A DNA stretch of 64,000 bases from an uncultured SAR86 cluster bacterium (lineage in GTDB: Bacteria > Pseudomonadota > Gammaproteobacteria > Magnimaribacterales > D2472), in the NCBI GenBank assembly GCA_902624425.1, contig CACNXK010000003.1, positions 41,798 through 105,797 on the forward strand, written 5' to 3'. The notes under the pieces were generated by a model that had not been told where the DNA came from, searched no databases, and saw only the letters and a list, made by a program, of their open reading frames with translations. Shown here in pieces: positions 168 through 16,386 of the stretch. Position 1 is the stretch's first letter. Each line of letters opens with the position of its first letter. A program made the position numbers and the translations under genes.

Positions 168-1340
168 ATGTATAAATATAAGATTTTCAACAACATCGCC
201 TCCGAGGGATTAAATTACCTGCTAGATGAGAATTTAATTTTAAGTGATGATGATCCCGAAGCAATACTTTTAAGAAGCAAGGTTCTTGGTGAGGAAGACT
301 TTAATAAAAATTTGCTTTGTATCGGAAGGGCGGGAGCAGGTGTAAATAATATTCCCATTGATTTAGCGTCACATAAGGGAGTGGTTGTTTTTAATACGCC
401 TGGAGCTAATGCAAATGCTGTTAAGGAGTTAGTTTTATGTGGATTACTATTGTCTTCGCGGGGAATTATTCAAGGTAATTCTTTTGCAAAGAGTCTTTCA
501 ATAACTGAACCAAATGAGTTTAATTTAACTATTGAAAAGCAAAAAAAGAGCTTCAAAGGCTCTGAGCTCTATGGAAAAACGCTGGGAATAATAGGGCTGG
601 GAGCAATAGGCTCAATGGTTGCTCAGTCGGCAAATGCTCTTGGAATGAAATTAATAGGTTTTGACCCATATATATCTGTAGATGCTGCTTGGCGATTACC
701 AAAGGAAGTTCATAAAGCAGACTCTATGGAGGAGCTTGTTGGAACTTCAGATTTTGTCTCAGTGCACGTTCCTTTATTAGAAACTACAAAGAATCTCATT
801 TCTAGCGACTTACTAAAACATTTTAAACAAGGAGCAAAACTTATAAACCTCTCCAGAGGTGGAATTGTTAAAAATAATGATGTTATTAATGCATTGAAAG
901 ATGAAAGACTAAGTTGTTTTGTAACAGATTTCCCATCATTAGAATTATCAGAAAGAGCTAACTCAACTGGAGATGTGATTTTATTACCTCATCTTGGAGC
1001 AAGTACTCTAGAGGCCGAGGTGAATTGTGCTGTTATGGCTGCAGAACAGGTAGTAGACTTTCTTAAAAATGGGAATATAAATAACTCTGTTAATTTTCCT
1101 AAAACAAAGCTAAGCAGATCAACGGACCATAGATTAGTCATTATTAACAAAAATGAGCCTGGCATGATTGGGAAGATTGCCGAATTTATAGCAAATGAGA
1201 AATTAAACATTAGCGATATGGTTAATAAGAGCAGGGAAGATATTGCGATAAATCTTATTGACCTAGATAGCAAACCAAAAGAAGAGTTGATACATTCTCT
1301 TCGAAAAATTGAGCATGTACTATCAGTGAGACAGTGTTAA
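168..1340 (+). CDS. serA: D-3-phosphoglycerate dehydrogenase with C-terminal ACT domain
   Basis: 390 aa. 2-hydroxyacid dehydrogenase pattern GRAGAGVNNIPIDLASHKGVVVFNTPGANANAVKELV, NAD fold GIIGLGAIGSMVA, and ACT-like tail HRLVIINKNEPGMIGKIAEFIANEKLNISDM. Confidence 0.85.
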   Translation: MYKYKIFNNIASEGLNYLLDENLILSDDDPEAILLRSKVLGEEDFNKNLLCIGRAGAGVNNIPIDLASHKGVVVFNTPGANANAVKELVLCGLLLSSRGIIQGNSFAKSLSITEPNEFNLTIEKQKKSFKGSELYGKTLGIIGLGAIGSMVAQSANALGMKLIGFDPYISVDAAWRLPKEVHKADSMEELVGTSDFVSVHVPLLETTKNLISSDLLKHFKQGAKLINLSRGGIVKNNDVINALKDERLSCFVTDFPSLELSERANSTGDVILLPHLGASTLEAEVNCAVMAAEQVVDFLKNGNINNSVNFPKTKLSRSTDHRLVIINKNEPGMIGKIAEFIANEKLNISDMVNKSREDIAINLIDLDSKPKEELIHSLRKIEHVLSVRQC

Positions 1341-1520
1341 AAACAACATTTTGTAAACCTTGTAAGCTAATTTAAATACTTGATGAATGTGTAACATTTG
1401 TTCATATTTGCCCACAAGGTATGAAGTAAAATTGATATTTAAATATCGTAAACGTTAAAAACAATAAACAAGGATACTAATTTTACTTAAACTACTGATA
1501 TAAGGTTATTTATTATAAAA

Positions 1521-1542
1521 TTGATCAATTTTTGATCAATCT
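1521..1542. repeat. Two tandem 11-bp units TTGATCAATTT / TTGATCAATCT, each with a GATC site
   Basis: Read directly from the sequence. They sit in nearly pure A/T sequence about 45 bp upstream of the DnaA-box cluster. Confidence 0.7.
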
Positions 1543-1587
1543 TATCAAGACCCTTATTCTATAATGTTTTTTAATATAATATTAAAG

Positions 1588-1622
1588 TTATCCATAAAGT
1601 TATCCACAGATTCTGTGGATAA
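1588..1622. promoter_or_regulatory. Cluster of three DnaA-box 9-mers
   Basis: TTATCCATA (1588-1596), TTATCCACA (1600-1608) and inverted TGTGGATAA (1614-1622). The last two form a perfect 9-bp inverted repeat with a 5-nt spacer. TTATCCACA is the DnaA box consensus. Confidence 0.65.
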
Positions 1623-1636
1623 AATTTAAGTGTTTT

Positions 1637-2314
1637 ATGAGTAAACTTTTTAAGGGTGTTGATATAAGTTGGAAACCATTCATCGAGAGTGAGTTTCAAA
1701 AGTCATACATGCAAGAAATTAAATCTTTCTTGATAAATTGTTCCCAAAATAATGAAGTAATATATCCGCATCCCAAAGATATCTTTAAATCATTAGAGTT
1801 AACATCCTTTCAAAGCGTAAAGGTTGTGATCTTAGGACAAGATCCATATCATGGACCCAATCAAGCTCATGGGTTAGCTTTTTCTGTTAAGAAAAACGTC
1901 CCAATTCCACCCTCACTAAAAAATATTTTTAAAGAAATATCAGAGGACCTTCATAGCAATAAAAGATTATCTGGAGATCTTACCAATTGGGCTAAACAGG
2001 GAGTTCTTCTTTTAAACACATGTTTGACGGTTTTTCCTGGGAGGCCTGGCTCTCATGCAAACCTAGGTTGGCAAAAATTTACTGACTCAATAATAGATGC
2101 AGTTGATACAAAGGATAATGTTGTGTTCTTATTATGGGGCTCTTATGCACAAAAAAAGAAAGATTTACTGCTGAACAAAAATAATTTAGTTTTGGAAGCT
2201 CCCCATCCCTCTCCATTATCAGCTCATAGAGGATTTTTTGGATGCAAGCACTTTTCAAAAGCGAATGAGTTTTTAAGGAAAAACAAGATTGAGGAAATTG
2301 ACTGGTCTAGTTAG
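1637..2314 (+). CDS. ung: Uracil-DNA glycosylase
   Basis: Family-1 UDG motifs GQDPYHGPNQAHGLAFSV and HPSPLSA; 225 aa. Confidence 0.95.
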   Translation: MSKLFKGVDISWKPFIESEFQKSYMQEIKSFLINCSQNNEVIYPHPKDIFKSLELTSFQSVKVVILGQDPYHGPNQAHGLAFSVKKNVPIPPSLKNIFKEISEDLHSNKRLSGDLTNWAKQGVLLLNTCLTVFPGRPGSHANLGWQKFTDSIIDAVDTKDNVVFLLWGSYAQKKKDLLLNKNNLVLEAPHPSPLSAHRGFFGCKHFSKANEFLRKNKIEEIDWSS

Positions 2315-3038
2315 GAATAAAACTCACAAGCTTAAAAATATTCTCACCTGAGCTTATTTCTTTGAGAGTTTTTATTTTCTTTGAATCAATGTTTGTCTCA
2401 TCTTGATACTCTATGGGGATAATTTCTTTTTTCTTTTTACTAAGGTGTTCCGTTCTAGCAATAACTTCTTGACCCCGAAAACAGCCCTTTTTGAAAGAAA
2501 CATGGCTTTTATTCATCCCAAGGTCATGTGGCCTATGCATTCCTGAATCTGGGCAAGAAAACAAAAATTGACCGAGAAGTAAAATGTTTAACTCAAAATC
2601 TTCAATTGAAAGCAAACTGTCGCAACTGTCTTTAAAAATATTAATATCACAACATATTTCACCATTTGCTAATAAATAATCTTTTTCGGCTGTGTTGTTA
2701 AAGAATTTATAAGTGACCTCTCTTGTATTAGTTTCTATCTCAAGACCATAAAATTTAATAAACTTATTTAATTCCTCAATTAAAATATTTGCGCATGATT
2801 CGTCTGAAATAATTTCAATTCCATTAGCTCCTGAAACCAAAAATTCAGCTTTAATAAATCCCTTTTCATCACAGAGGCAAGATTGTATAAATTTTTTAGA
2901 CTCTAGATCCTTCAGATCAGCAGTTATTTGTCCTTGAAGGAATTCAAATACTTTTTTTTCTTCACCAAGAAAAGAAATAACTTCTTTATTGATGGTAAAA
3001 GAGCCAGGTTTGAAATATGATTCTAGTTTTTTGATAAT
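2307..3038 (-). CDS. ygfZ: Folate-binding tRNA-modification / Fe-S cluster repair protein YgfZ (start uncertain)
   Basis: C-terminal signature KKGCFRGQEVIART. The frame stays open upstream of the track start (TTG at 2840) to a stop at 3054-3056. That stretch encodes the conserved N-terminal motif FLQGQITAD. No ATG/GTG/TTG is available there, so the 3038 (ATT) start is a guess. Confidence 0.7.
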   Translation of the reverse strand: MIKKLESYFKPGSFTINKEVISFLGEEKKVFEFLQGQITADLKDLESKKFIQSCLCDEKGFIKAEFLVSGANGIEIISDESCANILIEELNKFIKFYGLEIETNTREVTYKFFNNTAEKDYLLANGEICCDINIFKDSCDSLLSIEDFELNILLLGQFLFSCPDSGMHRPHDLGMNKSHVSFKKGCFRGQEVIARTEHLSKKKKEIIPIEYQDETNIDSKKIKTLKEISSGENIFKLVSFIPN

Positions 3039-3070
3039 TACGAGTAAATTGTTTTAAATTATTTTATCCG

Positions 3071-3316
3071 ATGGAAGCTGAAATAAATAGAATTAAATGG
3101 AAATCAAGACGAGGTATGCGCGAGCTAGATCTTTTATTTGAAAACTTTTTTAAATTTCATGCTTCAAAGATTTCAAAAACTGAGCTTCAAACATTGCGAG
3201 AACTTTTAGTATATGATGATCAATCCCTATTTGATTTTATATTTAAAGATAAAACCCTTGGCAATTTAAAACATGAGGAATTTATAAAAAAATTTCTAAA
3301 AAAATATGAAAAATAA
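3071..3316 (+). CDS. sdhE: FAD assembly factor SdhE (YgfY)
   Basis: 81 aa with RIKWKSRRGMRELDLLFENF, matching the SdhE RGxxE motif. It is divergent from ygfZ, as in enterobacteria. Confidence 0.9.
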   Translation: MEAEINRIKWKSRRGMRELDLLFENFFKFHASKISKTELQTLRELLVYDDQSLFDFIFKDKTLGNLKHEEFIKKFLKKYEK

Positions 3317-3318
3317 AA

Positions 3319-3345
3319 GAACTTTTTGTGGTTTTACATGTCTTA
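3319..3345 (+). promoter_or_regulatory. Sigma-E (ECF sigma-24) type promoter upstream of rpoE
   Basis: GAACTT (3319-3324), 16 nt, TCTTA (3341-3345). This resembles the GGAACTT-N16-TCnnA pattern of autoregulated rpoE/algU promoters. Confidence 0.5.
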
Positions 3346-3363
3346 ATGATTGAGGTATGAGTA

Positions 3364-3936
3364 ATGAATATTCCTCAAAAAAATGAAGCCTTGCTTTTAG
3401 AAAAGGCGAAAAAAGGAGATAAACAAGCATTTAATCTTATGGTAATAAAATATCAACCTCGCATCATGAGTGTTTTATATGGATTTTTAAAAATTCACTC
3501 GGATGCTGAAGACTTGACACAACAAACCTTTATTAAGGCATGGACCAACCTTGAAAAATTTAGGGGAGATAGTAGTTTTTATACATGGATCTACAGAATA
3601 GCCATTAACCTTGCAAAGAATTTTGTTAAAAAGCCATCAACACAAATTGAGAAAACATCCTTATCTATTGATGATCACCATTATGATCTTCCTGAAGATT
3701 TAGATCCATTATCTTTTATTTCAAACGAGGAGTTAAAGAGTGACTTAGATAATTTTATAAGCTCAATGCCTGAAAAATTAAAAACTGCTTTCATCCTTAG
3801 AGAATACGAAGGTAAGTCATATGAAGAAATAGCTACGGTCACTAATTGTCCTGTTGGAACCGTTAGATCAAGAATTTTTAGAGCCAGAGAAGAAATAGTT
3901 AATTATTTTAAAAAAGAAGTATATGAAACAGAATGA
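3364..3936 (+). CDS. rpoE: ECF RNA polymerase sigma factor RpoE/AlgU
   Basis: 190 aa. Region 2 (DAEDLTQQTFIKAW, YTWIYRIAINLAKN) and region 4 (SYEEIATVTNCPVGTVRSRIFRARE). Confidence 0.9.
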   Translation: MNIPQKNEALLLEKAKKGDKQAFNLMVIKYQPRIMSVLYGFLKIHSDAEDLTQQTFIKAWTNLEKFRGDSSFYTWIYRIAINLAKNFVKKPSTQIEKTSLSIDDHHYDLPEDLDPLSFISNEELKSDLDNFISSMPEKLKTAFILREYEGKSYEEIATVTNCPVGTVRSRIFRAREEIVNYFKKEVYETE

Positions 3937-4606
3937 TATAAATGAATTGATATCAGCTTATTATGATGATGAGTTGACCCAAAGTGAATTGAACTATTTA
4001 CTTGAGGAAACTAGAAAGAATCCAAAGCTCTTATCTAAACTCAGTAATTACGGATTAATAAGCACAATTTCTGAAAAAAATGAGAAAGTTATTTCAATTT
4101 TTGACAATATTTCAAATTTTGTTCAGAGAAGATGGGTTAGCAATGGCTTAACTGCTTCGGCTGCTGTTCTTCTTACAATTTTATTTCTAAGTGACCCATT
4201 TGAATCAAGGTTCTCTGAATCAGACCAAATTAACTCTCAAATAAGAGATGCAATTGAAAGTGAAGAAGCTGCCAAAACTTTCAGTTTAATTGAAAATGAT
4301 CTCATACCTCATGTCATGTCAATAATAGACAATAATGGCAAATCTTTTGGAGACGATCTTGCAATAGATCTATCACCAGTAGGCTTCAATCGATTAGATA
4401 ACAATCCTGGCTATTTCGTTAAAGGTAAGAAGAAAATCCAAGTAAGGGTTGAGCCAAACACACTTGGCATTTCAGAAAATAGGTACTGGAAATCTGGTAC
4501 CAAGCTAATTTATCTTTACCCAACAGTTGATGGGAAAATAATTTCTATTTACGGAGATTTATCAATTCAAGAGGTTGAAAAAATTATACCTGTCCTAATT
4601 AAATAA
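3923..4606 (+). CDS. rseA: Anti-sigma-E factor, RseA/MucA-like
   Basis: Overlaps rpoE by 14 nt. RseA_N-like N-terminus ELISAYYDDELTQSE and one central TM segment (LTASAAVLLTILFL). Confidence 0.65.
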   Translation: MKQNDINELISAYYDDELTQSELNYLLEETRKNPKLLSKLSNYGLISTISEKNEKVISIFDNISNFVQRRWVSNGLTASAAVLLTILFLSDPFESRFSESDQINSQIRDAIESEEAAKTFSLIENDLIPHVMSIIDNNGKSFGDDLAIDLSPVGFNRLDNNPGYFVKGKKKIQVRVEPNTLGISENRYWKSGTKLIYLYPTVDGKIISIYGDLSIQEVEKIIPVLIK

Positions 4607-4609
4607 CTC

Positions 4610-5980
4610 ATGAAAAAAATTCTTTTTGTATTTCCAATATTTTTATTTTCTCTCATAGAGGCTTTTGATCAAAATATTCCTGATCTTGTCGAAGAGACTT
4701 CTCCTGCTGTTGTAAACATTACATCTAAAAGAGAGGTAACTTACTCAAATCAAGATTACTTTAGGGGAATGCCAGAAGAGTTTGAAAGATTTTTTGGAAT
4801 TCCGAGAGACTTTGGTCAGCAACCCCAAACAAGAGAATCTGTTGCGTATGGATCAGGATTCTTTTTTAAAGAGAATTACCTTCTTACTAATTATCATGTT
4901 GTGAATGAAGCTACTGAGGTAATTGTATCTCTCACAGACAGAAGAGAGTTCATAGCTGAGGTTATAGGTGTCGATATGCTTTCTGATTTGGCAGTTCTTA
5001 AAATCGAGGGAGACGATCTTCCAGATCTTCAGATGGGGAGTAGTGATGAGCTTAAGGTTGGTGATTGGGTGATTGCAATTGGGTCGCCATTTAGCTTTGA
5101 CTTTTCTGTCACTGCTGGAATTGTTAGTGCAAAAGGAAGAAGTATTCAAAACCAAAATATAGGCGGCTATGTTCCATTTATTCAAACAGATGTTGCGATT
5201 AATCCTGGAAATTCTGGTGGACCACTATTTAATCTTGAAGGCGAGGTTGTAGGCATAAACTCTCAAATCTATTCAAGAAGTGGGGGCTATCAAGGCGTTT
5301 CCTTTTCAATTCCTATTGATGTAGCAATAGAGGTTGCGGATCAAATAATTGCATCTGGTGAAGTTTCAAGAGGTTATTTGGGGGTGAGAATGGGTGATGT
5401 AGATTCAGACCTTGCACAAGCCCTTGGAATGAAAAAGCCTTATGGAGCATTAATTAACAGTATAGAAAAAGATGGTGCGGCAGATAAAGGCGGCCTTAAA
5501 ACCGGCGATGTAATTATTGAGTTTGCTGGTGAAGAAGTTAAATTTGCTGGCGATCTCCCTCATATAGTTGGAAGAAAATTACCAGGAAGTAAATCAACTG
5601 CAAAAGTTGTTCGAAATGGTAAGACAATTAAGTTAGATTTCGAACTTGGTAAGCTTGAGAGTGCGGATAACACATTTGTTCCTGCATCATCATCTGAAAC
5701 AAAATATCCCCTTGGAATCAAAGTTGAAGATTTACCAGATGATTTCGATGGTGCTGATTCCGGTGTAGTTGTATCTAAAGTAGATAATTCTGCTAGCTCA
5801 GCAACAAAGATTTTAGAGGGTGACATTATTACTGATATTCAATCAGGTTTTCAGAGATACTCAATTGAGGATTCTCAAAGCTTTGATGAAATTGTTTCTA
5901 AGTTTGAAAGTGGAGATAAAATAGCAATCTTTGGTCTTAGAGGTGGCTCAAGATTTATTGTCCCAATTACAGTTGATTAG
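4610..5980 (+). CDS. degP: Periplasmic serine endoprotease DegP/MucD (trypsin-like plus PDZ)
   Basis: Signal peptide, catalytic motifs TNYHVV and GNSGGPLFN, and PDZ-like LGVRMGDV...GLKTGDVIIEF. Confidence 0.9.
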   Translation: MKKILFVFPIFLFSLIEAFDQNIPDLVEETSPAVVNITSKREVTYSNQDYFRGMPEEFERFFGIPRDFGQQPQTRESVAYGSGFFFKENYLLTNYHVVNEATEVIVSLTDRREFIAEVIGVDMLSDLAVLKIEGDDLPDLQMGSSDELKVGDWVIAIGSPFSFDFSVTAGIVSAKGRSIQNQNIGGYVPFIQTDVAINPGNSGGPLFNLEGEVVGINSQIYSRSGGYQGVSFSIPIDVAIEVADQIIASGEVSRGYLGVRMGDVDSDLAQALGMKKPYGALINSIEKDGAADKGGLKTGDVIIEFAGEEVKFAGDLPHIVGRKLPGSKSTAKVVRNGKTIKLDFELGKLESADNTFVPASSSETKYPLGIKVEDLPDDFDGADSGVVVSKVDNSASSATKILEGDIITDIQSGFQRYSIEDSQSFDEIVSKFESGDKIAIFGLRGGSRFIVPITVD

Positions 5981-6026
5981 ATTTATCTCTTAATAAGAGG
6001 GGTTTTCATTTAAAATACCCTTACTT

Positions 6027-7814
6027 ATGAAACACATACGAAACTTTTCTATCATTGCTCATATTGATCATGGCAAGTCTACGCTATCAGATAGGTTGAT
6101 TGAGTTTTGTGGAGGATTGTCGGCTAGAGAAATGTCAAGCCAGATACTTGACTCTATGGAGATTGAGCAAGAAAGAGGTATTACCATTAAAGCTCAAGCA
6201 GTTTCATTAGAATATACACATAAAGATCAAACATATCTTTTAAACTTTATTGATACGCCGGGACACGTTGATTTTTCTTATGAGGTGTCTAGATCTTTGT
6301 CAGCATGTGAAGGTGCTTTATTGTTGGTTGATGGCTCACAAGGAGTTGAAGCTCAAACACTTGCAAATTGCTATACAGCTGTAGATCAGGGTTTAGAGGT
6401 AATTCCAGTAATAAACAAAATTGATCTTGATCAAGCAGATCCCGACAGAGTTAAGCAAGAAATTGAAGATATGATTGGACTTGATTCCACGACTGCGCCT
6501 CTTGTCAGCGCTAAATCTGGGCAGGGCGTAGAGGCACTTTTGGAAACCCTCATAGAAAAAGTTCCAGCTCCAGTTGGGTCAGTTGATGATGAGCTAAAAG
6601 CACTAATTATAGATTCATGGTTTGATCCTTATCTGGGAGTTGTTTCTCTAATAAGGATTGTTAATGGTGAAATAAAAGTAGGTGAAAAGGTTAAAGTATT
6701 TTCTACCAATCAAACCTATAAAGTTGAAGAAATAGGAATTTTTTCACCAAAAAAGATTAAGAAAGAAAAGTTATCTGCTGGAGAAGTAGGCTATTTAGTC
6801 TCGGGTATAAAAGATATTAAAGGGGCTCCAGTAGGAGATACACTGACATCTAATTTAAAAGAAGAAATACAACCATTACCTGGCTTCAAGACAGTAACCC
6901 CAAATGTTTTTTCATCGCTTTTCACAATTGATTCAGATGATTATGAGAGATTTAGAGATGCATTATCCAAACTTGCACTTAATGATTCCTCGCTAGTTTA
7001 TGAGCCTGAAGTTTCAGATGCACTTGGTTTTGGTTTTCGATGTGGTTTTTTAGGTACATTACATATGGAGGTTGTTCGCGAGAGGTTAGAGAGAGAATAT
7101 GATTTAGATTTAATTTCGACAGCACCATCTGTTCAGTATCAAGTTCTCAAAACAGATGGAGAAACTATAATTTGTGATAATCCCTCTCAACTTCCTGAAC
7201 CTAATTTTATTGAAGAAATTAGAGAACCAATTGTTCGCACGAATATTCTCACTCCAAATGAATACGTGGGCTCTGTAATTACTTTATGTAATAACAACAG
7301 AGGTGTTCAAAAAAATATGGAGTACTTTGGAAATCAGGTATCTATAGTCTTTGAGCTTCCTCTTGGAGGCGTAATTATTGATTTTTTTGATCAGATTAAA
7401 TCAATAACAAAGGGCTTTGCTTCAGTGGAGCACTCTTTGATAGGCTTTTTTAAATCTGATCTAACAAAAATTGATGTATTAATAAACAACAACAAAGTCG
7501 ATGCACTCTCGATGATTGTTCATAAATCTTTTTCTAATAGGAAGGCTAGAGAAATTGCAAAAAATCTTCAAAAACTGATTCCAAGACAGATGTTTGATGT
7601 TCCGATACAGGTTACACTTGGATCAAAGATTATCTCGAGAGAAACGGTTAAGGCATATAGAAAAAATGTTACCGCTAAACTATATGGTGGTGATGTAACT
7701 AGAAAAAAGAAACTTTTAGAAAAACAGAAAGAGGGTAAGAAGAAAATGAAACAACTTGGAAGTGTCTCCATACCTCAAGAGGCATTCTTAAACTATTTTA
7801 ATTCTGGCGACTAA
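6027..7814 (+). CDS. lepA: Elongation factor 4
   Basis: [30 protein letters not shown]; 595 aa. Canonical lepA-lepB order. Confidence 0.97.
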
Positions 7815-8719
7815 TGTTTGGATTGGATAAAGATACTGGTAATTTAATAATTATAATCTCAGTCATTGGGATACTGGCATGTGTTTGTCTTTGGCTTCTC
7901 AGAAGCTTAAACCTTGTTTTAAGGAGCTATGAAATTAGAACAGTTGAAAACTACTTAAGTTGGATAGGTGTGTCTCTAGCCTTTTTAATTTTGTTAATGA
8001 TCTTTGTTACAGCTGGAGATCTAGGCATTCTTTTATTAATAGGTTCTATAGTAAGTTTTTTATTAATGCTTGCTGGGCTGGTTGCAAAAAATACAGAGAT
8101 CACAAAAACTGGAAGAGGGTGGTTCCTCCCATTTTTTTTGATTTTCATATTGAGAACTTTTCTTTATGAGCCCTATCAAATTCCTTCTGGATCAATGATG
8201 CCTGGTCTCAAAGTAGGTGACTTCATTCTCGTAAAAAAGTTTACATATGGCATCAAAATCAACAGAACTGGTTCCCCTTTAGCTTTTGAAAAAGATCCTG
8301 AACTTGGAGATGTGGTTGTCTTCATTCCACCTCATGACCATAGACCATTTGTAAAAAGATTGATTGGCAAACCAGGTGACAGAATTACCTACATTAATAA
8401 GAAGATTTATATAAATGGAAAAGCTATAAGTCAAAAACTAATAAGTGAAGAAGACAATATAAGAATCTATCAAGAGCTAATTAATAATAAAACCATCCAA
8501 ATACAACAAGTGATTACTCGAATTAATTACCCTGAGGAGTGGATTGTGCCTGAAAATAAGTATTTTGTAATAGGTGATAATAGAGATAATTCAAATGATA
8601 GCAGATACTGGGGATTTGTACCCAAAGAAAACTTTATGGGGACGGCAGACTACATCTGGATGTCTTGGGAATGCTGGACATGCATACCATCATTTAAAAG
8701 AGCAGGTAGAATTAATTAA
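7814..8719 (+). CDS. lepB: Signal peptidase I
   Basis: SGSMMPGL (catalytic Ser box), VKRLIG, GDNRDNSNDSRYWGFV. Confidence 0.93.
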   Translation: MFGLDKDTGNLIIIISVIGILACVCLWLLRSLNLVLRSYEIRTVENYLSWIGVSLAFLILLMIFVTAGDLGILLLIGSIVSFLLMLAGLVAKNTEITKTGRGWFLPFFLIFILRTFLYEPYQIPSGSMMPGLKVGDFILVKKFTYGIKINRTGSPLAFEKDPELGDVVVFIPPHDHRPFVKRLIGKPGDRITYINKKIYINGKAISQKLISEEDNIRIYQELINNKTIQIQQVITRINYPEEWIVPENKYFVIGDNRDNSNDSRYWGFVPKENFMGTADYIWMSWECWTCIPSFKRAGRIN

Positions 8720-9372
8720 TGTATCAGAAGCTTTACGAGCAAATTAATTACTCTTTTAAAAATGAGGAAATATTAGAATTAGTTCTTTCTCACAAAAGTA
8801 CTGGTGATAAGAATAATGAAAGATTGGAGTTTCTTGGTGATGCAATCCTCGGAGCTGTTATATCAGAGGATTTATATAATAGATTTTGTGATATTCAGGA
8901 GGGAGACTTAACAAGAATCAGAGCCTCACTTGTAAAAGGTTCGAAACTTGCTGAAAAAGGCAAAGATCTGGGAATTTTATCTCTTGCCAAGCTTTCAAAA
9001 GCTGCTAAAAATTTATCAGACATTGAGGGTTCCTCAATATCAGAAACTATTTTTGAGGCGTTAATAGGAGGTATTTATCTAGATTCCTCTTGGCATGATG
9101 TAAAAAGAGTTATTTTATTTCTGTATAAAAAAGATCTTGAATCAATAAATATTAATGATTCATTCAAAGATCCAAAATCAGAACTGCAAGAATATCTTCA
9201 ATCTATTGGAAAAGAACCATTGGAGTATAAATGTGAAGGATTTCATGATGGCAATCAAGAGATCTTCAAATGCCATGCTTCTTTTGGTGAGAGAAAGTTT
9301 TTCGCTGATGGCAAATCAAAAAAGAAAGCACAAATGAAAGTTGCAGAGAAAATTTTGAAATCAATAGAATGA
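8719..9372 (+). CDS. rnc: Ribonuclease III
   Basis: RNase III signature ERLEFLGDAILG plus a C-terminal dsRBD. Confidence 0.95.
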   Translation: MYQKLYEQINYSFKNEEILELVLSHKSTGDKNNERLEFLGDAILGAVISEDLYNRFCDIQEGDLTRIRASLVKGSKLAEKGKDLGILSLAKLSKAAKNLSDIEGSSISETIFEALIGGIYLDSSWHDVKRVILFLYKKDLESININDSFKDPKSELQEYLQSIGKEPLEYKCEGFHDGNQEIFKCHASFGERKFFADGKSKKKAQMKVAEKILKSIE

Positions 9373-10265
9373 AAAATTTTTGCGGATTAGTTTCTATCGT
9401 AGGAAAACCAAATGTCGGTAAATCTACCTTATTAAATAAAATCATTGAACAAAAGATCTCTATAACATCTAGAAAATCACAAACTACTAGGAATAATATT
9501 CTTGGAATTAAAACAAAAGAAAACTTTCAAATGGTGTTTGTAGATACTCCTGGTGTTCACATGAATGCATCGAAGATTATGAATAAAGTGTTAAATCAAA
9601 CTGCTTTGGGCGCAGTTCAGGACGCTGATGTAATTATTTTTATGATTCAAAGAAACAAAATCAATGCTCTAGATGAACTCATTCTTGAAAAATTAAAAGG
9701 CCTTAAAAATAAAAAGATTTGTGTAATTAATAAACTTGATCAAGTCAAATCTACTAATAGCTTACTGCCTCTTATAGAGCGGTTAAATAATGAGCATGAA
9801 TTTGACGAAATTATTCCAATCTCAGCAAAAACTGGAAAAAATATTAGCGAGCTTGAAGATATCATCTGTAGAAATCTTCCTGAAAATAATCATCTTTATG
9901 ATAGTGAAACAAAGTTTCTAGCAAAAAAATCTTTTATGGTTGCAGAGATAGTTAGAGAGAAAATTATAAGGTTTTTAGGCGACGAGCTGCCACACGAGAT
10001 ATATGTACAAGTTCAAAAGATTGATGATAAAAATAATATCATTAATATTGATGCAGATATTATTGTTGCAAGAGAATCACAAAAAGGAATTGTCGTAGGC
10101 AAAAATGGAGCTAAACTCAAAAAAATTGGTGAAACAGCTAGATTAGATTTAGAGAAATTCTTTAACAAAAAAGTTTTTTTGAAGACATGGGTCAAAACAA
10201 AAAAGAATTGGAATAATGATTCAGACTTTATTTCAAGTCTTGGCATTGGAAGCTTATATGAGTGA
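9369..10265 (+). CDS. era: GTPase Era
   Basis: G1 GKPNVGKSTLLN, G3 DTPG, NKLD, and a KH domain (VARESQKGIVVGKNG). Confidence 0.95.
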   Translation: MKNFCGLVSIVGKPNVGKSTLLNKIIEQKISITSRKSQTTRNNILGIKTKENFQMVFVDTPGVHMNASKIMNKVLNQTALGAVQDADVIIFMIQRNKINALDELILEKLKGLKNKKICVINKLDQVKSTNSLLPLIERLNNEHEFDEIIPISAKTGKNISELEDIICRNLPENNHLYDSETKFLAKKSFMVAEIVREKIIRFLGDELPHEIYVQVQKIDDKNNIINIDADIIVARESQKGIVVGKNGAKLKKIGETARLDLEKFFNKKVFLKTWVKTKKNWNNDSDFISSLGIGSLYE

Positions 10266-10947
10266 ATTATGGCGCGATGCTTTTCTTTTGCACCAAAGGC
10301 CATATGGAAATTCGAGTGTTATGGCTGAAATGTTTACTTTGGATAATGGTCGAATATCAGTCATTGCAAAAGGAGCAAAAAAGCCAAAATCAAAGTTTTT
10401 TGGTGTTTTGTCTCCATTTTCAAAACTAAGAATTACTTATAGGGGAAAATCAGAATTGAAAACTCTTACAAACGTAGATAAAGAGGATATTTTTTCAGAT
10501 AGTTTTTCAAAACTCTCTTATACACTTCTCTATATAAATGAACTATTAATAAAGATTCTCCCTCAGGGTGCCCCGCAAAAAGAATTATTTAATCTTTATG
10601 ATAAGTTTCTATTAGAAATAAAAACTAGCAATGAAATCGATATTATTTTAAGGAGGTTTGAAATTGATTTGCTGGAAATGCTTGGTTATGGAATAAATTT
10701 CATTAATGAAGTTGATTCTGGTCAAAGCATAGACGCGGATAAATTATATGATTTTGTTCCTGAGTTAGGATTTAAGGAATCACCAAATGGTATTTTTAAC
10801 GGTAAAGAGATAATCTCAATATCAAAATTAGATTTTGAGAACATAAATAAAAAGAAATTTAAGTCATTAACCACAATGGCAATCGGATATAGTCTTGATG
10901 GTGGCGATTTAAAAAGTAGACAAATTTTCAAGACTCTTAAAAAATGA
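10258..10947 (+). CDS. recO: DNA repair protein RecO
   Basis: From the internal ATG at 10258, MSELWRDAFLLHQRPYGNSSVMAEMFT parallels the E. coli RecO N-terminus. The track start at 10216 would overlap era by 50 nt. Confidence 0.85.
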   Translation: MSELWRDAFLLHQRPYGNSSVMAEMFTLDNGRISVIAKGAKKPKSKFFGVLSPFSKLRITYRGKSELKTLTNVDKEDIFSDSFSKLSYTLLYINELLIKILPQGAPQKELFNLYDKFLLEIKTSNEIDIILRRFEIDLLEMLGYGINFINEVDSGQSIDADKLYDFVPELGFKESPNGIFNGKEIISISKLDFENINKKKFKSLTTMAIGYSLDGGDLKSRQIFKTLKK

Positions 10948-11315
10948 TAATCGGAACAGGCGTAGATATTGTTGAAATCGAAAGATTTATGAGAATGGAT
11001 AATCTTGATGGGATTGCAAAAAAAATCTTACACTCTAACGAGTTAGCTGAATTCCATAAGAATAAAAATAAATACTTATTCCTTTCAAAAAAGTTTGCTT
11101 TCAAAGAAGCTTTTGTTAAAGCTATTGGTACTGGTTTAAGAGAACCCTTTTTCTTAAACAATATTGAAATAGTTAGAGATAAGTTAGGTAAACCCATGGT
11201 TGTTACTCATGATGAAGCAAAAAAGGAATTTGAGAATTTGGGGATAACAAAAGCGCATGTTAGTCTTTCAGATACGGAGCAATATGTAGTTGCATTTGTT
11301 GTATTAGAAAAATGA
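10944..11315 (+). CDS. acpS: Holo-[acyl-carrier-protein] synthase
   Basis: IIGTGVDIVEIERF N-terminus, 123 aa. It sits after recO; no pdxJ lies between them. Confidence 0.9.
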   Translation: MIIGTGVDIVEIERFMRMDNLDGIAKKILHSNELAEFHKNKNKYLFLSKKFAFKEAFVKAIGTGLREPFFLNNIEIVRDKLGKPMVVTHDEAKKEFENLGITKAHVSLSDTEQYVVAFVVLEK

Positions 11316-11956
11316 ATACCTTTATTTTATTAGGACCCCCTGGAGCAGGAAAGGGCACTCAAGCAGATTTAATTTCAGCACATTTTGGTATTCCTAAAAT
11401 AAGTACTGGCGATATGTTGCGTTCTGCTGTTGCGTCAAAGAGTGATCTTGGAAATAGGGTTGAGGATATCCTTAACTCCGGCAAACTCGTATCAGATGAT
11501 ATTATTATTGAATTAATAAATGACCGTATCAATCAATCAGATTGTAAATTAGGATATCTTTTTGATGGAGTTCCAAGAACACTTGGTCAAGCAGATCTTT
11601 TTTTACAGAATGATATTGGGGTAAAAAAAGTAATAGATATTTCACTAGATGATGAATTAATCATAAAGAGAATGTCAGGAAGAAGATTCCACATAGCATC
11701 GGGTAGAAGCTATCATATTGAATTTAATCCTCCAAAAGTTGATGGCATAGATGACGAAACGGGAGAACCCCTTATTCAAAGAGAGGATGATTTTCCTGAG
11801 ACCGTAAAAAAAAGGCTTGAGGTTTATCATACTCAAACTAAACCACTTACAGATTTTTACAAAAGAAAGGCCTCAGAGGGCATTATGAGCTTTATCTCAA
11901 TTAATGGTAATCAGTCAGTAGACGAAGTCTTTAGCGAAATTAAGACTTATTTATAA
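11312..11956 (+). CDS. adk: Adenylate kinase
   Basis: P-loop GPPGAGKGTQA, GDMLR, and a LID region. Confidence 0.95.
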   Translation: MNTFILLGPPGAGKGTQADLISAHFGIPKISTGDMLRSAVASKSDLGNRVEDILNSGKLVSDDIIIELINDRINQSDCKLGYLFDGVPRTLGQADLFLQNDIGVKKVIDISLDDELIIKRMSGRRFHIASGRSYHIEFNPPKVDGIDDETGEPLIQREDDFPETVKKRLEVYHTQTKPLTDFYKRKASEGIMSFISINGNQSVDEVFSEIKTYL

Positions 11957-11958
11957 AA

Positions 11959-12411
11959 ATGAAAATAATTTCTTATGACGGCTCTATGCAAGAAAAATCA
12001 TCAATGTCAGCTCTATTAGATAATGATATTAAGACTGAAATAATTGAACATGGAAAAAAAACAAGGCCTTCTTGGGAAACATTTTTTAAAAAATTTAATC
12101 TTCGGCATAAAGATTTATCCGACATTGATCTTTTTCTTATTTGTATTGGTCCAGGATCTTCCTATACAGCTGTTCGATCATCAGTCAGCTTCTTCAAAGC
12201 CTTATGCACTGGTTTAAGTAAGCCCTTAGCCGGTATCAGCTATGATGAGCTCAGCAATTTTAGAAAAAAAAATAATGGTGTTGTTAATATAAACTCAGTT
12301 GACATGATAAATCTCGCCAAACTCAATATCGAAGATTATTTAGACTCAACTCCTTCTTCTGTAAATCCTGTTCATGATGAAAGAAATAATTTTAAAGAAA
12401 TGAATGTCTGA
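11959..12411 (+). CDS. tsaB: Shortened TsaB (YeaZ)-like protein
   Basis: 150 aa. LICIGPGSSYTAVRSSVSFFKALCTGLSKPLAGIS aligns by eye with the TsaB core [23 protein letters not shown]...PMIGVS. The N- and C-terminal ends are also TsaB-like, and the middle is missing. Confidence 0.55.
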   Translation: MKIISYDGSMQEKSSMSALLDNDIKTEIIEHGKKTRPSWETFFKKFNLRHKDLSDIDLFLICIGPGSSYTAVRSSVSFFKALCTGLSKPLAGISYDELSNFRKKNNGVVNINSVDMINLAKLNIEDYLDSTPSSVNPVHDERNNFKEMNV

Positions 12412-13192
12412 TATTGTTTTAAGTCTGATGCTTGGTATTATTCAGGGCCTCACTGAATTTCTTCCTATATCAAGTTCGGCCCATCTTCTTATACCTACTC
12501 TTTTATTTGGAGCAAACGACTTAGGGTTAGAATTTGATATTGCAGTTCATGCAGGAACTCTTTGTGCTGTTATCTATTTCTTTAAAGATGATATCAAGGT
12601 TTATATATCATCAATATTCAACTCTTCCAGTAGTTATGAAAATGATAGAAGAGTTGCTATTAATTTATTAATTGCAACAGTACCGATAGTGTTGGCAGGA
12701 ATATTTCTTAACGACTTAATTTCACAAAGGTTAGTAACTAAAGAACTTATTGCATGGTCAAATATTATCTTTGCTTCACTGCTTCTATTAAGCTTTTACT
12801 TATCGAAGAAAAATAAAGATATATTTCATTTATCTATGTCAATGAGCTTTTTTATAGGCTGTATTCAAATCTTTGCATTAATCCCAGGAGCCTCAAGGTC
12901 AGGAGTTGTAATCATGGCTTGTTTATTTTTAGGATTAAACTTAAAAGATTCCTCAAGATTTGCGTTTCTTTTGGCTATTCCAACTATTTTGGGTGCATTG
13001 GTATTTTTGATTAGCGATTCAATTTCAGCAAATTTGAATATTTTTAGCATTCAACTATTCATTGGATTCATAACCTCTGCACTTGTTGCCTTCTTTACTA
13101 TTAAGTATTTCCTTCAATTTGTTGATCGCATTGGTATGACACCTTTTTTTATATATAGAATCTTTTTAGGCCTGTTACTCATAATTCTGTGA
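12404..13192 (+). CDS. uppP: Undecaprenyl-diphosphatase
   Basis: QGLTEFLPISSSAHL and PGASRSG motifs; polytopic membrane protein. Confidence 0.93.
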   Translation: MSDIVLSLMLGIIQGLTEFLPISSSAHLLIPTLLFGANDLGLEFDIAVHAGTLCAVIYFFKDDIKVYISSIFNSSSSYENDRRVAINLLIATVPIVLAGIFLNDLISQRLVTKELIAWSNIIFASLLLLSFYLSKKNKDIFHLSMSMSFFIGCIQIFALIPGASRSGVVIMACLFLGLNLKDSSRFAFLLAIPTILGALVFLISDSISANLNIFSIQLFIGFITSALVAFFTIKYFLQFVDRIGMTPFFIYRIFLGLLLIIL

Positions 13193-13824
13193 AAGAAGAA
13201 CATTTCTTTTATATAAATAACATTCTTCACTATAAGATTAGTAACAATGAAAGTTTAAGCTTTGATTTTCTTAAAGGTAGATTATTTAATCGACTGAAAA
13301 AGATTGAACATGAATCATTAATTAAGAAAGCTATAGGTAAAAATAAAGTTAAATTAAAAATTTTTGACGCCACAGCAGGATCACTTATTGATTCAATAAT
13401 TTTTTTAAAGCTTGGTCACAGAGTTGTTGCATGTGAACATAGCAAAATCCTATATAGGCTTTTAGATGATGCAATTTTAAGAGCTAAAAAGGAATATGAT
13501 TTTTTTGAAAATCTTACATTTGTAAACTTAGACTCAGCTAAAATCATAGATAATCACAAAGATTCAGATATTTTTTATTTTGACCCAATGTTTAAAGACA
13601 TAAAACAAAATGTAAAACGGTCAGGAACCCTCCAAAAAATAGGAAACATTTTGGATCTTGAGAAACTTGAAGACACAAGCATCCAAATTTTTGATCAGTT
13701 GCTAAAAAATAAATATAAAAAGATTATTGTTAAGAGACCAATCAAGAGTAACCCACTCAACGAAAAGATAAATTATCAAGTTAAAGGAAGAGCAATTAGA
13801 TATGATATTTATGTTAAAACTTAA
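13189..13824 (+). CDS. rsmJ: 16S rRNA m2G1516 methyltransferase RsmJ
   Basis: GTG start. DATAGSLIDSIIFLKLGHRV, FYFDPMF, IIVKRP and RYDIYV all parallel E. coli RsmJ (YhiQ). Confidence 0.8.
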   Translation: MKEEHFFYINNILHYKISNNESLSFDFLKGRLFNRLKKIEHESLIKKAIGKNKVKLKIFDATAGSLIDSIIFLKLGHRVVACEHSKILYRLLDDAILRAKKEYDFFENLTFVNLDSAKIIDNHKDSDIFYFDPMFKDIKQNVKRSGTLQKIGNILDLEKLEDTSIQIFDQLLKNKYKKIIVKRPIKSNPLNEKINYQVKGRAIRYDIYVKT

Positions 13825-13827
13825 TGA

Positions 13828-13912
13828 TGGTGCCCCATATCTGAGTCGAACAGATACTCCCGAAGGAACGCGATTTTGAGTCGCGCGCGTCTACCAATTC
13901 CGCCAATGGGGC
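13828..13912 (-). tRNA. tRNA-Leu (anticodon CAA)
   Basis: The reverse complement reads GCCCCATTGGCGGAATTGGTAGACGCGCGCGACTCAAAATCGCG...TTCGACTCAGATATGGGGCACCA. It has a 7-bp acceptor stem, anticodon loop CTCAAAA, a long variable arm and an encoded CCA. Confidence 0.93.
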
Positions 13913-13960
13913 AAGTTGCTAATTGTAGCTAACTATTCATTCTTTTAAAATTAGCAATTT

Positions 13961-14983
13961 ATGAAAACAATAGAATTTGATTACGACTTACCCGAAGAGT
14001 TAATAGCAGCTTATCCTTGCAAAGATAGGACCAAAAGCAGGCTTCTTGTTGACTCTAATCCTGAAGACCACAGAATCTTTTCAGAAATAGATAGATTTAT
14101 AAATAAAGATGATTTATTGATTCTGAATAATACCTCTGTTTTACCAGCAAGATTATTTGGAAAAAAAGAAACTGGTGGGGAAGTGGAAGTTTTTCTTGAG
14201 AGAATTATTGGTGAAACTACAGCACTTGTTCAAATTCGGTCTTCAAGATCACCTAAACCAGGTACAACTATAGTCGTTGAAAATAATGAGCATTGTTTTA
14301 AATTACTGTGCAAGGATCGTAAAGACGAATTCTTTATTATTGATTTTCAAGACGACCCAAAAAAGGTATTTAATTCTCTAGGAAAAATACCGTTGCCACC
14401 TTATATAAAAAGGAAAACTGAGAAAGAGGATAGCCACAGATATCAAACTGTATATGAAAACAAAAATTATCAGGAATCTGTTGCTGCACCTACAGCAGGG
14501 CTTCATTTTGATAACTTATTATTAAGAAAATTAAAAAAGAAAGGCACAAAGATTGAATATATTAATTTGACGGTTGGGGCGGGAACTTTTCAACCAGTTA
14601 AAGCAGAAAACATCACTGATCACAAAATTCATAGTGAGTACATTAATGTTTCGAAAGAGCTCGTTAACGAAATAATAAATACTAAAAAGATTGGTGGAAA
14701 TGTAATAGCAGTTGGGACAACTTCGTTAAGGGCCATAGAAACAGTATTTTCAAAACAATTAGATGAATATGATGGGTTAACAGATATTTTTATTTATCCA
14801 GGATATGAATTTAAAGCAATTGATAAGTTAATAACAAATTTTCACTTACCTAAATCAACTTTACTAATGCTTGTAGCTGCATTCATAGGTTTTGATAGAA
14901 TGAAACACTTATATGAAATAGCAATCAAAGAAAGATACCGGTTTCTTTCTTATGGCGATGCAACGTTTCTTACTAGAAAATGA
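13961..14983 (+). CDS. queA: S-adenosylmethionine:tRNA ribosyltransferase-isomerase
   Basis: [12 protein letters not shown]-terminus and [10 protein letters not shown]. Precedes tgt. Confidence 0.95.
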
Positions 14984-16383: not shown

Positions 16384-16386
16384 TTT

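What the first reader, a model, noticed from the sequence alone, without database searches (positions are those of the whole stretch)
1341..1636. Three consensus DnaA boxes plus GATC-bearing tandem 11-mers in an oversized AT-rich spacer (candidate oriC or DnaA-control locus)
SEEN: The serA-ung spacer is 296 bp, in a window where most genes abut or overlap. It holds TTATCCATA (1588-1596), TTATCCACA (1600-1608) and the inverted TGTGGATAA (1614-1622). The last two form a perfect 9-bp inverted repeat with a 5-nt spacer. About 45 bp upstream are two tandem 11-mers, TTGATCAATTT / TTGATCAATCT (1521-1542), each with a GATC, embedded in almost pure A/T. From ung onward, about 17.5 kb of genes (1637-19154) are all on the + strand except one tRNA. 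ESTABLISHED: TTATCCACA is the high-affinity DnaA box. Enterobacterial-type origins pair DnaA boxes with GATC-initiated AT-rich repeats (the DUE). Non-origin DnaA-box triplets also exist (datA, DARS). INFERENCE: This is a chromosomal origin, a DnaA titration or reactivation site, or DnaA control of ung. CAVEATS: No dnaA, rpmH, mnmG or mioC is adjacent. serA on the left is also on the + strand, so no orientation switch is visible here.
Basis: partly seen in the sequence, partly recalled or inferred. Interest (0 to 1): 0.6.

Follow-up and report, generated by a model that had tools for sequence, protein, structure and literature searches.

The report
DARS-like DnaA box trio in SAR86
The three DnaA boxes upstream of ung are real and conserved across the marine SAR86 clade, but their spacing matches E. 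coli's DnaA-reactivating sequences (DARS), not a replication origin, which would extend this replication-timing device far beyond E. coli's relatives.

Summary
The only two perfect DnaA boxes in the 64 kb window lie at 1600-1608 and 1614-1622. A third one-mismatch box lies at 1588-1596. They sit in the second-largest, most AT-rich spacer.

Read on the minus strand, the three boxes are TTATCCACA-5 nt-TGTGGATAA-3 nt-TATGGATAA. This is exactly the box I/II/III geometry of the E. coli DARS1 and DARS2 cores. E. coli oriC and datA do not have this geometry.

The trio is invariant in geometry in seven SAR86 lineages, including the isolate HIMB1674. An IHF consensus site follows it 85-87 nt beyond box III. 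The same module, with the IHF site at 85 nt, lies upstream of priA in the high-GC family Rhodanobacteraceae. There, GC skew and gene orientation argue against an origin.

In SAR86 I found no dnaA within -31 to +62 kb. There is no gene-orientation switch and no inversion of strand skew at the spacer. There is also no box-trio-DUE layout of the origin type.

Best reading (about 0.57): a non-origin, DARS2-like DnaA/IHF assembly site. It may also influence ung expression. An origin (about 0.1) is not formally excluded, because I could not scan the whole HIMB1674 genome. DARS has so far been reported only in E. coli and its relatives.

The parts
1614..1622 (-). DnaA box I equivalent (TTATCCACA on the minus strand; perfect consensus), nearest to the ung start codon
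   Evidence: invariant in all SAR86 lineages and in Rhodanobacteraceae
1609..1613 (.). 5-nt spacer between the head-to-head boxes I and II. The length is invariant but the sequence is free (GAATC/GATTC here; ATTTC, TTTTC, CAATC, AGAGC elsewhere). Position 1611 is polymorphic in the population.
   Evidence: the 5-bp spacing is the stated DARS feature
1600..1608 (-). DnaA box II equivalent (TGTGGATAA on the minus strand; perfect consensus), head-to-head with box I
1588..1596 (-). DnaA box III equivalent (TATGGATAA on the minus strand, one mismatch). It has the same orientation as box II and lies 3 nt from it. It is the most variable box among relatives (TTGGGATAA, TTTGGATAA, TGTGGATGG).
1523..1537 (.). 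Conserved middle block, GATCAATTTTTGATC, 50 nt beyond box III. It is self-complementary and fits the Fis consensus GNNNAWWWWWTNNNC. It also overlaps a sigma-70-like -35 hexamer on the minus strand. Function unassigned.
   Evidence: (same position in L088 and Rhodanobacter; degenerate in other SAR86)
1488..1500 (-). IHF-binding consensus WATCARNNNNTTR (TATCAGTAGTTTA on the minus strand), 87 nt beyond box III and on the same strand as the box I-to-III reading
   Evidence: present at 85-87 nt in the eight scanned lineages, five SAR86 and three Rhodanobacteraceae (0-1 mismatch); also visible at the matching offset in L182 and L183; alignments A2/A3
1341..1636 (.). serA-ung intergenic spacer that holds the whole module (22.6% GC)
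   Evidence: 293-295 of 296 identical in ten metagenome contigs of the same species
1637..2314 (+). ung (uracil-DNA glycosylase). It starts 14 nt from box I and is transcribed away from the module.
   Evidence: (PF03167)
168..1340 (+). serA-like D-3-phosphoglycerate dehydrogenase, on the IHF-site side of the module

Best explanation
The spacer holds a non-origin DnaA assembly site of the DARS type (DnaA-reactivating sequence, closest to E. coli DARS2).

Proposed mechanism. DnaA binds the perfect boxes I and II, which face each other across 5 bp. The two AAA+ domains meet head-to-head. A third DnaA on the weaker box III, 3 bp away, joins head-to-tail. IHF binds its consensus site about 86 bp beyond box III and bends the DNA back onto this trimer. 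In E. coli this kind of complex releases ADP from ADP-DnaA. The resulting apo-DnaA rebinds ATP, which raises the pool of initiation-competent ATP-DnaA before the next round of replication. Because box I lies 14-85 nt from the ung start, the same complex may also modulate ung transcription.

What is shown here: the sequence geometry, its conservation, its phasing with the IHF consensus, and the lack of origin signatures.

What is inferred: DnaA and IHF binding, and the nucleotide exchange.
For: 1. Geometry. On the minus strand the element reads TTATCCACA-5-TGTGGATAA-3-TATGGATAA. E. coli DARS1 reads TTATCCACT-ATTCC-TGTGGATAA-CCA-TGTGTATTA. DARS2 reads TTATTCACC-TTTTC-TGTGGATAG-AGT-TGTGAAGAA. The DARS2 core limits are confirmed by the published deletion primers. 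Sugiyama 2019 (PMC6868365) states that boxes I and II are head-to-head and 5 bp apart, and that all three boxes are essential.

2. Specificity. In 2.3 Mb of fetched DNA, strong box pairs occur only head-to-head with 5 nt or direct with 3 nt. Of 25 spacer combinations, only 5/3 gave hits: 8, including both E. coli DARS. E. coli oriC and datA give none. There were 0 chance hits in 19 Mb of random sequence.

3. Conservation. The geometry is identical in seven SAR86 lineages, whose Ung proteins are only 55-59% identical to the window's. These include HIMB1674, CP151794.1. The flanking sequence has diverged.

4. IHF site. An IHF consensus lies on the same strand 85-87 nt after box III in the eight lineages scanned, and is visible at the same offset in the two SAR86 lineages added later. 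In E. coli DARS2 the IBS1-2 pair lies at 58 and 74 nt, about one helical turn closer.

5. A second lineage. The same module, alignable almost without gaps, lies upstream of priA in Rhodanobacteraceae: the L088 MAG, Dyella caseinilytica and Rhodanobacter sp. B04. There, GC skew keeps its sign across it. In Dyella, 7 of 8 genes on one side point toward it.

6. No origin signature in SAR86.
Against: - No experiment: DnaA and IHF binding and ADP release are untested.
- I could not locate dnaA or the true oriC in any SAR86 genome, so 'non-origin' rests on local evidence only.
- Replication-linked skew in SAR86 is weak. The differences are about 0.04-0.05, roughly 1-1.5 standard errors per data set, and the left-flank data sets are orthologous and so not independent.
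- The order of accessory sites differs from DARS2. E. coli has core-IHF-Fis. Here a Fis-like block lies between core and IHF, and it is degenerate in most SAR86 lineages.
- I did not show that SAR86 encodes IHF, Fis, Hda or DiaA.
- The flanking genes differ from those of E. coli DARS1/2, so this is not an ortholog by position.
- Proximity to the ung start fits a plain operator equally well.
Confidence: 0.57

Rival explanations
1. It is the chromosomal replication origin (oriC) of SAR86. DnaA bound to the three boxes, helped by IHF, would unwind the adjacent AT-rich region that holds the GATC 11-mers.
For: - These are the only perfect DnaA boxes in about 95 kb of SAR86 sequence examined.
- The spacer is AT-rich (22.6% GC) and carries an IHF consensus.
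- Genes to the right are 44:11 co-oriented away from it.
- nrdAB on the left points away.
- The SAR86 origin has not been described.
- Some small genomes have origins with few boxes (own knowledge).
Against: - There are only three boxes, in a tight 35-bp cluster whose geometry E. coli oriC lacks.
- The two tandem boxes point away from the AT-rich side. No run of three or more NAN trios follows a box within 16 nt, as the basal unwinding system requires (reading).
- serA, immediately to the left, points into the spacer.
- Over 31 kb to the left, orientation is about 12:12, and a 7-gene operon points toward the spacer.
- GC3 skew of + strand genes exceeds that of - strand genes by about 0.04-0.05 on both sides.
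- No dnaA, dnaN, mnmG or rpmH lies within -31 to +62 kb.
- The 11-mer duplication is species-specific.
- The homologous module in Rhodanobacteraceae shows no skew switch and has convergent genes.
Confidence: 0.1
2. It is only a transcriptional operator. DnaA, helped by IHF, represses or activates the adjacent DNA-repair gene (ung in SAR86, priA in Rhodanobacteraceae). This would couple repair capacity to the replication cycle, with no role in DnaA nucleotide exchange.
For: - Box I lies 14 nt (window) to about 85 nt (relatives) from the ung start, and 135-148 nt from the priA start. In both cases the gene is transcribed away from the module.
- All DARS-geometry trios seen here lie beside replication or repair genes: uvrB, mutH, priA, ung.
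- DnaA is a known transcription factor, for example at dnaA and nrdAB (own knowledge).
- No sigma-70-like + strand promoter was found downstream of the boxes. Bound DnaA would therefore sit at or after any ung promoter.
Against: - The distance from the boxes to the start codon is not conserved (14 to about 150 nt), whereas the internal geometry and the 85-87 nt distance to the IHF site are strictly kept.
- A simple operator does not need a head-to-head 5-bp pair plus a third box at 3 bp.
- The E. coli elements with this geometry were shown to act in DnaA reactivation.
- The two functions are not mutually exclusive.
Confidence: 0.2
3. It is a datA-like site. A DnaA-box cluster with IHF would titrate DnaA or stimulate hydrolysis of DnaA-bound ATP, which restrains initiation rather than promoting it.
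For: DnaA boxes together with an IHF site are also the minimal make-up of E. coli datA.
Against: The E. coli datA region has no 5/3 arrangement; its close pair is head-to-head with a 3-nt spacer. Three boxes give little titration capacity. The geometry matches DARS exactly.
Confidence: 0.06
4. The palindrome is an RNA hairpin (serA terminator) or the operator of an unrelated dimeric regulator, and only resembles DnaA boxes.
For: In this species the arms extend to an 11-nt perfect inverted repeat, 1600-1610 / 1612-1622.
Against: - No terminator-like site was detected and no T-run follows the stem.
- The extension into the spacer is not conserved in relatives, where the spacer reads GAAAT, GAAAA, CAATC or AGAGC.
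- Both arms are the exact 9-mer DnaA consensus in every lineage.
- The third box and the phased IHF site are left unexplained.
- There is no Rfam hit in the spacer.
Confidence: 0.03

Closest known systems
E. coli DARS2 (DnaA-reactivating sequence 2, rppH-mutH spacer)
   Same: - Three DnaA boxes: I and II head-to-head across 5 bp, III 3 bp from II in the same orientation.
- An IHF consensus on the box III side, on the same strand.
- An intergenic site next to a DNA-repair gene.
   Different: - The IHF site is 85-87 nt from box III here, against 58/74 nt in E. coli, about one helical turn further.
- Boxes I and II are both perfect here. In DARS2 they carry 2 and 1 mismatches.
- A Fis-like block lies between the core and IHF, not beyond IHF.
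- The neighbouring gene is on the box I side and close (14-150 nt), not on the box III side about 490 nt away.
- The flanking genes are different.
- Activity is untested.
E. coli DARS1 (bioD-uvrB spacer)
   Same: Identical 5/3 geometry with a perfect box II. The 5-nt spacer is even similar (ATTCC against GATTC/ATTTC). It lies upstream of a repair gene (uvrB).
   Different: DARS1 works without IHF or Fis, and no IHF consensus was found within 225 nt of its box III. The SAR86 module has a strictly placed IHF consensus.
Bacterial oriC (E. coli type; basal unwinding system of Richardson/Pelliciari)
   Same: High-affinity DnaA boxes, an IHF site, and AT-rich DNA with GATC-containing repeats.
   Different: - There are only three boxes, in a head-to-head arrangement not seen in E. 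coli oriC.
- The box orientation relative to the AT-rich side is wrong for box-trio-DUE.
- There is no skew or orientation switch.
- There are no indicator genes.
E. coli datA
   Same: A non-origin DnaA-box cluster that depends on IHF.
   Different: datA has more boxes spread over about 1 kb, a 3-nt head-to-head pair, and the opposite effect on DnaA (ATP hydrolysis).
DnaA-regulated promoters (dnaA, nrdAB, uvrB P3)
   Same: DnaA boxes close to a gene start.
   Different: Such promoters have no fixed three-box geometry and no phased IHF site.

Membership tests
DARS (DnaA-reactivating sequence) | Core of three DnaA boxes (I, II, III) | tested here: met
   Boxes at 1614-1622, 1600-1608 and 1588-1596 carry 0, 0 and 1 mismatches. 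The definition is from PMC6868365.
DARS (DnaA-reactivating sequence) | Boxes I and II in opposite (head-to-head) orientation, separated by 5 bp | tested here: met
   TTATCCACA-GAATC-TGTGGATAA. The spacing is the same as in E. coli DARS1 and DARS2 read here and as stated.
DARS (DnaA-reactivating sequence) | Box III in the orientation of box II, 3 bp away | tested here: met
   TGTGGATAA-CTT-TATGGATAA. DARS1 has CCA and DARS2 has AGT as the 3-nt spacer. Only the 5/3 combination gives hits among 25 tried.
DARS (DnaA-reactivating sequence) | Lies outside the replication origin | tested here: inconclusive
   SAR86: no dnaA within -31 to +62 kb, no orientation switch and no skew inversion, but the true oriC was not located. 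Rhodanobacteraceae homolog: skew keeps its sign and genes converge.
DARS (DnaA-reactivating sequence) | DARS2 type: IHF-binding site at a fixed distance from the core, required for activity | tested here: met
   The consensus WATCARNNNNTTR lies 85-87 nt after box III in the eight lineages scanned and appears at the same offset in L182 and L183. E. coli IBS1-2 lies at 58/74 nt. This is sequence only; binding was not tested.
DARS (DnaA-reactivating sequence) | DARS2 type: Fis-binding site required for activity | tested here: inconclusive
   A perfect Fis consensus lies 50-51 nt after box III in the window, L088 and Rhodanobacter, but is degenerate in other SAR86 lineages and placed differently from E. 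coli. No fis gene was seen in the sequence held.
DARS (DnaA-reactivating sequence) | Promotes ADP release from ADP-DnaA and regenerates ATP-DnaA | not testable with these tools
   This needs a biochemical assay.
DARS (DnaA-reactivating sequence) | Positional orthology with E. coli DARS1 (bioD-uvrB) or DARS2 (rppH-mutH) | tested here: not met
   The flanks here are serA and ung. In Rhodanobacteraceae they are a DUF3667/DUF1232 gene and priA.
oriC (chromosomal origin) | Switch of strand composition skew and of gene orientation at the site | tested here: not met
   Left flank is about 12:12. The GC3 difference between + and - genes has the same sign on both sides. Power is limited because the skew is weak.
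oriC (chromosomal origin) | DnaA box(es) followed within 16 bp by three or more DnaA-trios and an AT-rich unwinding element on the 3' side of the TTATCCACA reading | tested here: not met
   The rule is from PMC8287927. After box 2 on the + strand come the inverted box and the ung ATG. After box I on the minus strand come boxes II and III. No NAN run of three or more lies in range (reading).
oriC (chromosomal origin) | Adjacent indicator genes (dnaA, dnaN, rpmH, mnmG, mioC) | tested here: not met
oriC (chromosomal origin) | Supports autonomous replication; coverage peak in growing populations | not testable with these tools
   This needs a minichromosome assay or read-depth profiles.

The most novel reading that the evidence does not exclude
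DARS-type DnaA/IHF modules are not an enterobacterial speciality. They would be an ancient, widespread device of Gammaproteobacteria, present from streamlined ocean SAR86 to soil Rhodanobacteraceae. They would be kept at a fixed internal geometry (I-5-II-3-III, with IHF about 85 nt away) and recurrently placed beside replication or repair genes (uvrB, mutH, priA, ung). That placement would couple regeneration of ATP-DnaA with expression of repair functions.
Probability: 0.3. Interest if true: 0.75.

Novelty: new member of a known kind. Interest (0 to 1): 0.6.

Why it matters
DARS elements set the timing of replication initiation in E. coli by recycling ADP-DnaA. The papers I could search describe them only in E. 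coli and closely related gammaproteobacteria.

A module with the same three-box geometry and a phased IHF site occurs in SAR86, one of the most abundant bacterial clades in the surface ocean, and in Rhodanobacteraceae. This suggests that the DnaA nucleotide-exchange cycle is a general gammaproteobacterial mechanism.

It also gives a simple sequence signature for finding such sites: TTATCCACA-N5-TGTGGATAA-N3-box, then WATCARNNNNTTR about 85 nt on. It offers culturable test organisms (Dyella, Rhodanobacter, HIMB1674).

Finally, it warns that origin finders based on DnaA-box clusters could mis-call these sites as oriC in genomes with weak skew, which would bias growth-rate estimates based on coverage.

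Tried and rejected
- Skew at four-fold degenerate sites on 10-kb flanks was too weak to locate an origin: within the window, GC4 differs by only about 0.09 +/- 0.07 between + and - genes. I replaced it with per-gene coding-strand skew on longer flanks.
- An exact-protein look-up of SerA found nothing.
I walked left instead through NrdB homologs and one metagenome scan. This reached about -31 kb only.
- I could not obtain a SAR86 DnaA sequence or the position of dnaA in CP151794.1. A motif search for DnaA in all fetched loci found none.
- The SAR86 isolate paper and its supplements say nothing on the origin, the record's start point, IHF or Fis.
- IHF/HU and Fis genes were not found in the about 95 kb of SAR86 sequence held. 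This says nothing about the rest of the genome.
- An IHF consensus in the middle block was rejected (2 mismatches on either strand).
- A sigma-70 promoter for ung within the spacer was not found.
- A terminator reading of the palindrome was rejected.
- GATC enrichment was rejected.
- A first version of the box-pair census timed out and was rerun with array code.

Full report
**What is there**

The window is a low-GC (33.8%) marine gammaproteobacterial segment. Its gene order is serA, ung, a minus-strand ORF, sdhE, rpoE, rseA, degP, lepA, lepB, rnc, era, recO and so on. Its nearest genomes belong to the SAR86 clade, order Magnimaribacterales.

- TTATCCATA at 1588-1596
- TTATCCACA at 1600-1608
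- TGTGGATAA at 1614-1622
- the 11-mers TTGATCAATTT/TTGATCAATCT at 1521-1542

The two perfect boxes are the only perfect ones in the 64 kb. No other box with at most one mismatch lies in the spacer. The spacer is the second-largest gap in a window whose median gap is 2 bp, and it is 22.6% GC.

Two details need correction:
- GATC is not enriched.
- A conserved minus-strand gene (2307-2840) follows ung, so the downstream stretch is not uniformly on the + strand.

**Conservation**

Ten metagenome contigs of the same species carry the spacer at 293-295 of 296 identity. The only variants are at 1379, 1436 and 1611, and 1611 is the middle of the 5-nt spacer between two boxes.

Other SAR86 lineages have Ung proteins only 55-59% identical to the window's, and their flanking spacer sequence has diverged. 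They still keep the three boxes with identical spacing. These lineages are L015/L016, L017, L064, L182, L183 and the closed genome of the isolate HIMB1674. In that genome, CP151794.1, the spacer lies at about 294.6-294.9 kb of 1,616,670 bp.

**The geometry is that of DARS**

Read on the minus strand, the element is TTATCCACA-GAATC-TGTGGATAA-CTT-TATGGATAA.

I fetched the two E. coli K-12 loci that hold the DnaA-reactivating sequences:
- DARS1, in the bioD-uvrB spacer, reads TTATCCACT-ATTCC-TGTGGATAA-CCA-TGTGTATTA.
- DARS2, in the rppH-mutH spacer, reads TTATTCACC-TTTTC-TGTGGATAG-AGT-TGTGAAGAA.

The published primers used to delete 'DnaA box I-III' of DARS2 bracket exactly that DARS2 stretch.

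Sugiyama et al. 2019 state three things. The DARS core has three essential boxes. Boxes I and II are head-to-head and 5 bp apart. [quoted passage not shown]

I ran a mechanical census of 2.3 Mb of non-redundant fetched DNA:
- Strong box pairs occurred only head-to-head with a 5-nt spacer, or direct with a 3-nt spacer.
- Of 25 spacer combinations for three boxes, only 5/3 scored. It gave 8 hits: five SAR86 lineages, one other gammaproteobacterial MAG, and both E. coli DARS.
- E. coli oriC and datA do not score. The close pair in datA has a 3-nt spacer.
- Random sequence with the window's dinucleotide make-up gave 0 hits in 19 Mb.

**Accessory sites**

I aligned the elements in the box I-to-III direction (alignments A2 and A3). 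Beyond box III they show:
- about 50 nt of unconserved sequence of conserved length;
- then, about 20 nt further, a match to the IHF consensus WATCARNNNNTTR on the same strand.

The IHF match starts 85 nt after box III in six lineages, 86 nt in one, and 87 nt in the window (1488-1500, minus strand). It carries 0-1 mismatch. The two SAR86 lineages added later, L182 and L183, show the same motif at the matching offset.

E. coli DARS2 has its two IHF sites, 3 bp apart as published, at 58 and 74 nt. That is about one helical turn closer.

The middle block fits the Fis consensus GNNNAWWWWWTNNNC in the window, L088 and Rhodanobacter, but is degenerate in other SAR86 lineages. It also overlaps a minus-strand sigma-70-like promoter. 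I leave its role open. In DARS2 the order is core, IHF, Fis, so the layout here is not identical.

**A second, distant lineage**

The non-SAR86 hit, L088, is a 65-70% GC MAG. The module sits 135 nt upstream of priA. PriA homologs led to Dyella caseinilytica and Rhodanobacter sp. B04:
- In Dyella (CP064030.1) the core lies at 3,956,911-3,956,945 of 4,812,204 bp.
- Both carry TTATCCACA-N5-TGTGGATAA-GTC-TGTGGATG upstream of priA.
- Both have the IHF consensus exactly 85 nt on.

In these GC-rich genomes, GC skew keeps its sign across the module: +0.045/+0.071 in L088, -0.056/-0.013 in Dyella, and -0.057/-0.008 in Rhodanobacter. In Dyella, seven of the eight genes on one side point toward the module. 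No dnaA is nearby. That is not how an origin looks.

**Is the SAR86 copy an origin?**

I could not scan a whole SAR86 genome, so this is not settled. The local evidence is against it:
- No dnaA or other indicator gene lies within -31 to +62 kb.
- To the right, genes are 44:11 on the + strand. To the left, over 31 kb, they are about 12:12. That stretch includes serA pointing into the spacer and a seven-gene operon pointing toward it.
- Skew at four-fold sites is too weak for short flanks. However, coding-strand GC3 skew of + genes exceeds that of - genes by about 0.04-0.05 on both sides of the spacer. An origin would invert that difference. The left-flank data sets are orthologous, so this is modest evidence.
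- The boxes do not follow the box-spacer-trios-DUE rule of the basal unwinding system. The tandem boxes face away from the AT-rich side.
- The 11-mer duplication is species-specific.

**Other readings**

A plain DnaA operator for ung remains plausible, and it is compatible with a DARS role. Box I is 14 nt from the ung ATG here, about 60-85 nt away in relatives, and 135-148 nt from priA. That distance is variable, while the internal geometry and the IHF distance are fixed.

It is striking that every trio with this geometry seen here lies beside a replication or repair gene: uvrB, mutH, priA or ung.

A terminator or a foreign palindromic operator is unlikely.

**Novelty**

The papers I could search describe DARS only in E. 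coli and 'E. coli-related' gammaproteobacteria. I found nothing on a SAR86 origin or DARS.

I file this as a new member of a known kind: a DARS2-like module in two distant gammaproteobacterial lineages. It has its own accessory layout. Function is inferred from geometry only.

Noticed in passing
window 39106-39294 (+): Full-length IMES-1 RNA motif (RF02034, 194 bits) in the largest intergenic gap of the window, upstream of the ORF at 39368-40777. It is a marine-metagenome RNA of unknown function, here placed in a SAR86 genome context.
   Followed up: no
window 2307-2840 (-): Minus-strand ORF of 177 aa that overlaps the ung stop by 8 nt. It is called as a gene in all metagenome contigs. It is 277-279 aa in other SAR86 lineages, with a weak GCV_T/folate-binding hit in L182.
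   Followed up: partly
window 1539 to 1512 (-): Sigma-70-like promoter on the minus strand (TTGATC-16 nt-TATAAT, 10 of 12 matches). Its -35 hexamer is the conserved middle block. It points toward the 3' end of serA, where no gene is called.
   Followed up: no
L095 1308-1342, L096 1136-1170, L088 15923-15957, window 1588-1622: Every DARS-geometry trio found sits beside a DNA replication or repair gene: uvrB and mutH in E. coli, priA in Rhodanobacteraceae, ung in SAR86. The sample is too small for a test, but this is unlikely to be chance.
   Followed up: partly
L096 1452-1486 (E. coli rppH-mutH spacer): A second, weaker 5/3-spaced arrangement (TTATCCCAG-CTTTC-TGTGGATAA-CAT-GGTGTAAGA) lies 316 nt from the DARS2 core, inside the 455-bp DARS2 region.
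   Followed up: no
L180 1407-1427 (E. coli datA region): datA holds a head-to-head box pair with a 3-nt spacer (TTATTCACA-3-TGTGGATGA). This geometry is distinct from the 5-nt DARS pair.
   Followed up: no
L001-L010 and L097, L099, L107 (contig ends): Many independent assemblies break at the same places, about 2-3 kb and 11 kb beyond the left end of L001-L010, and about 2 kb beyond the Amidohydro_3 gene. This suggests a repeat or a hypervariable island 20-30 kb left of the spacer.
   Followed up: no
L091 17353-18105; L182 17415-18164: A proteorhodopsin gene (PF01036) lies about 15 kb from the DnaA-box module in HIMB1674-like SAR86 lineages.
   Followed up: no
L181 21646-22175; L088 10001-10654: In Rhodanobacteraceae, ung lies only 5-12 kb from the priA-linked module. 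That is why the L088 copy was picked up by an Ung-based search.
   Followed up: no
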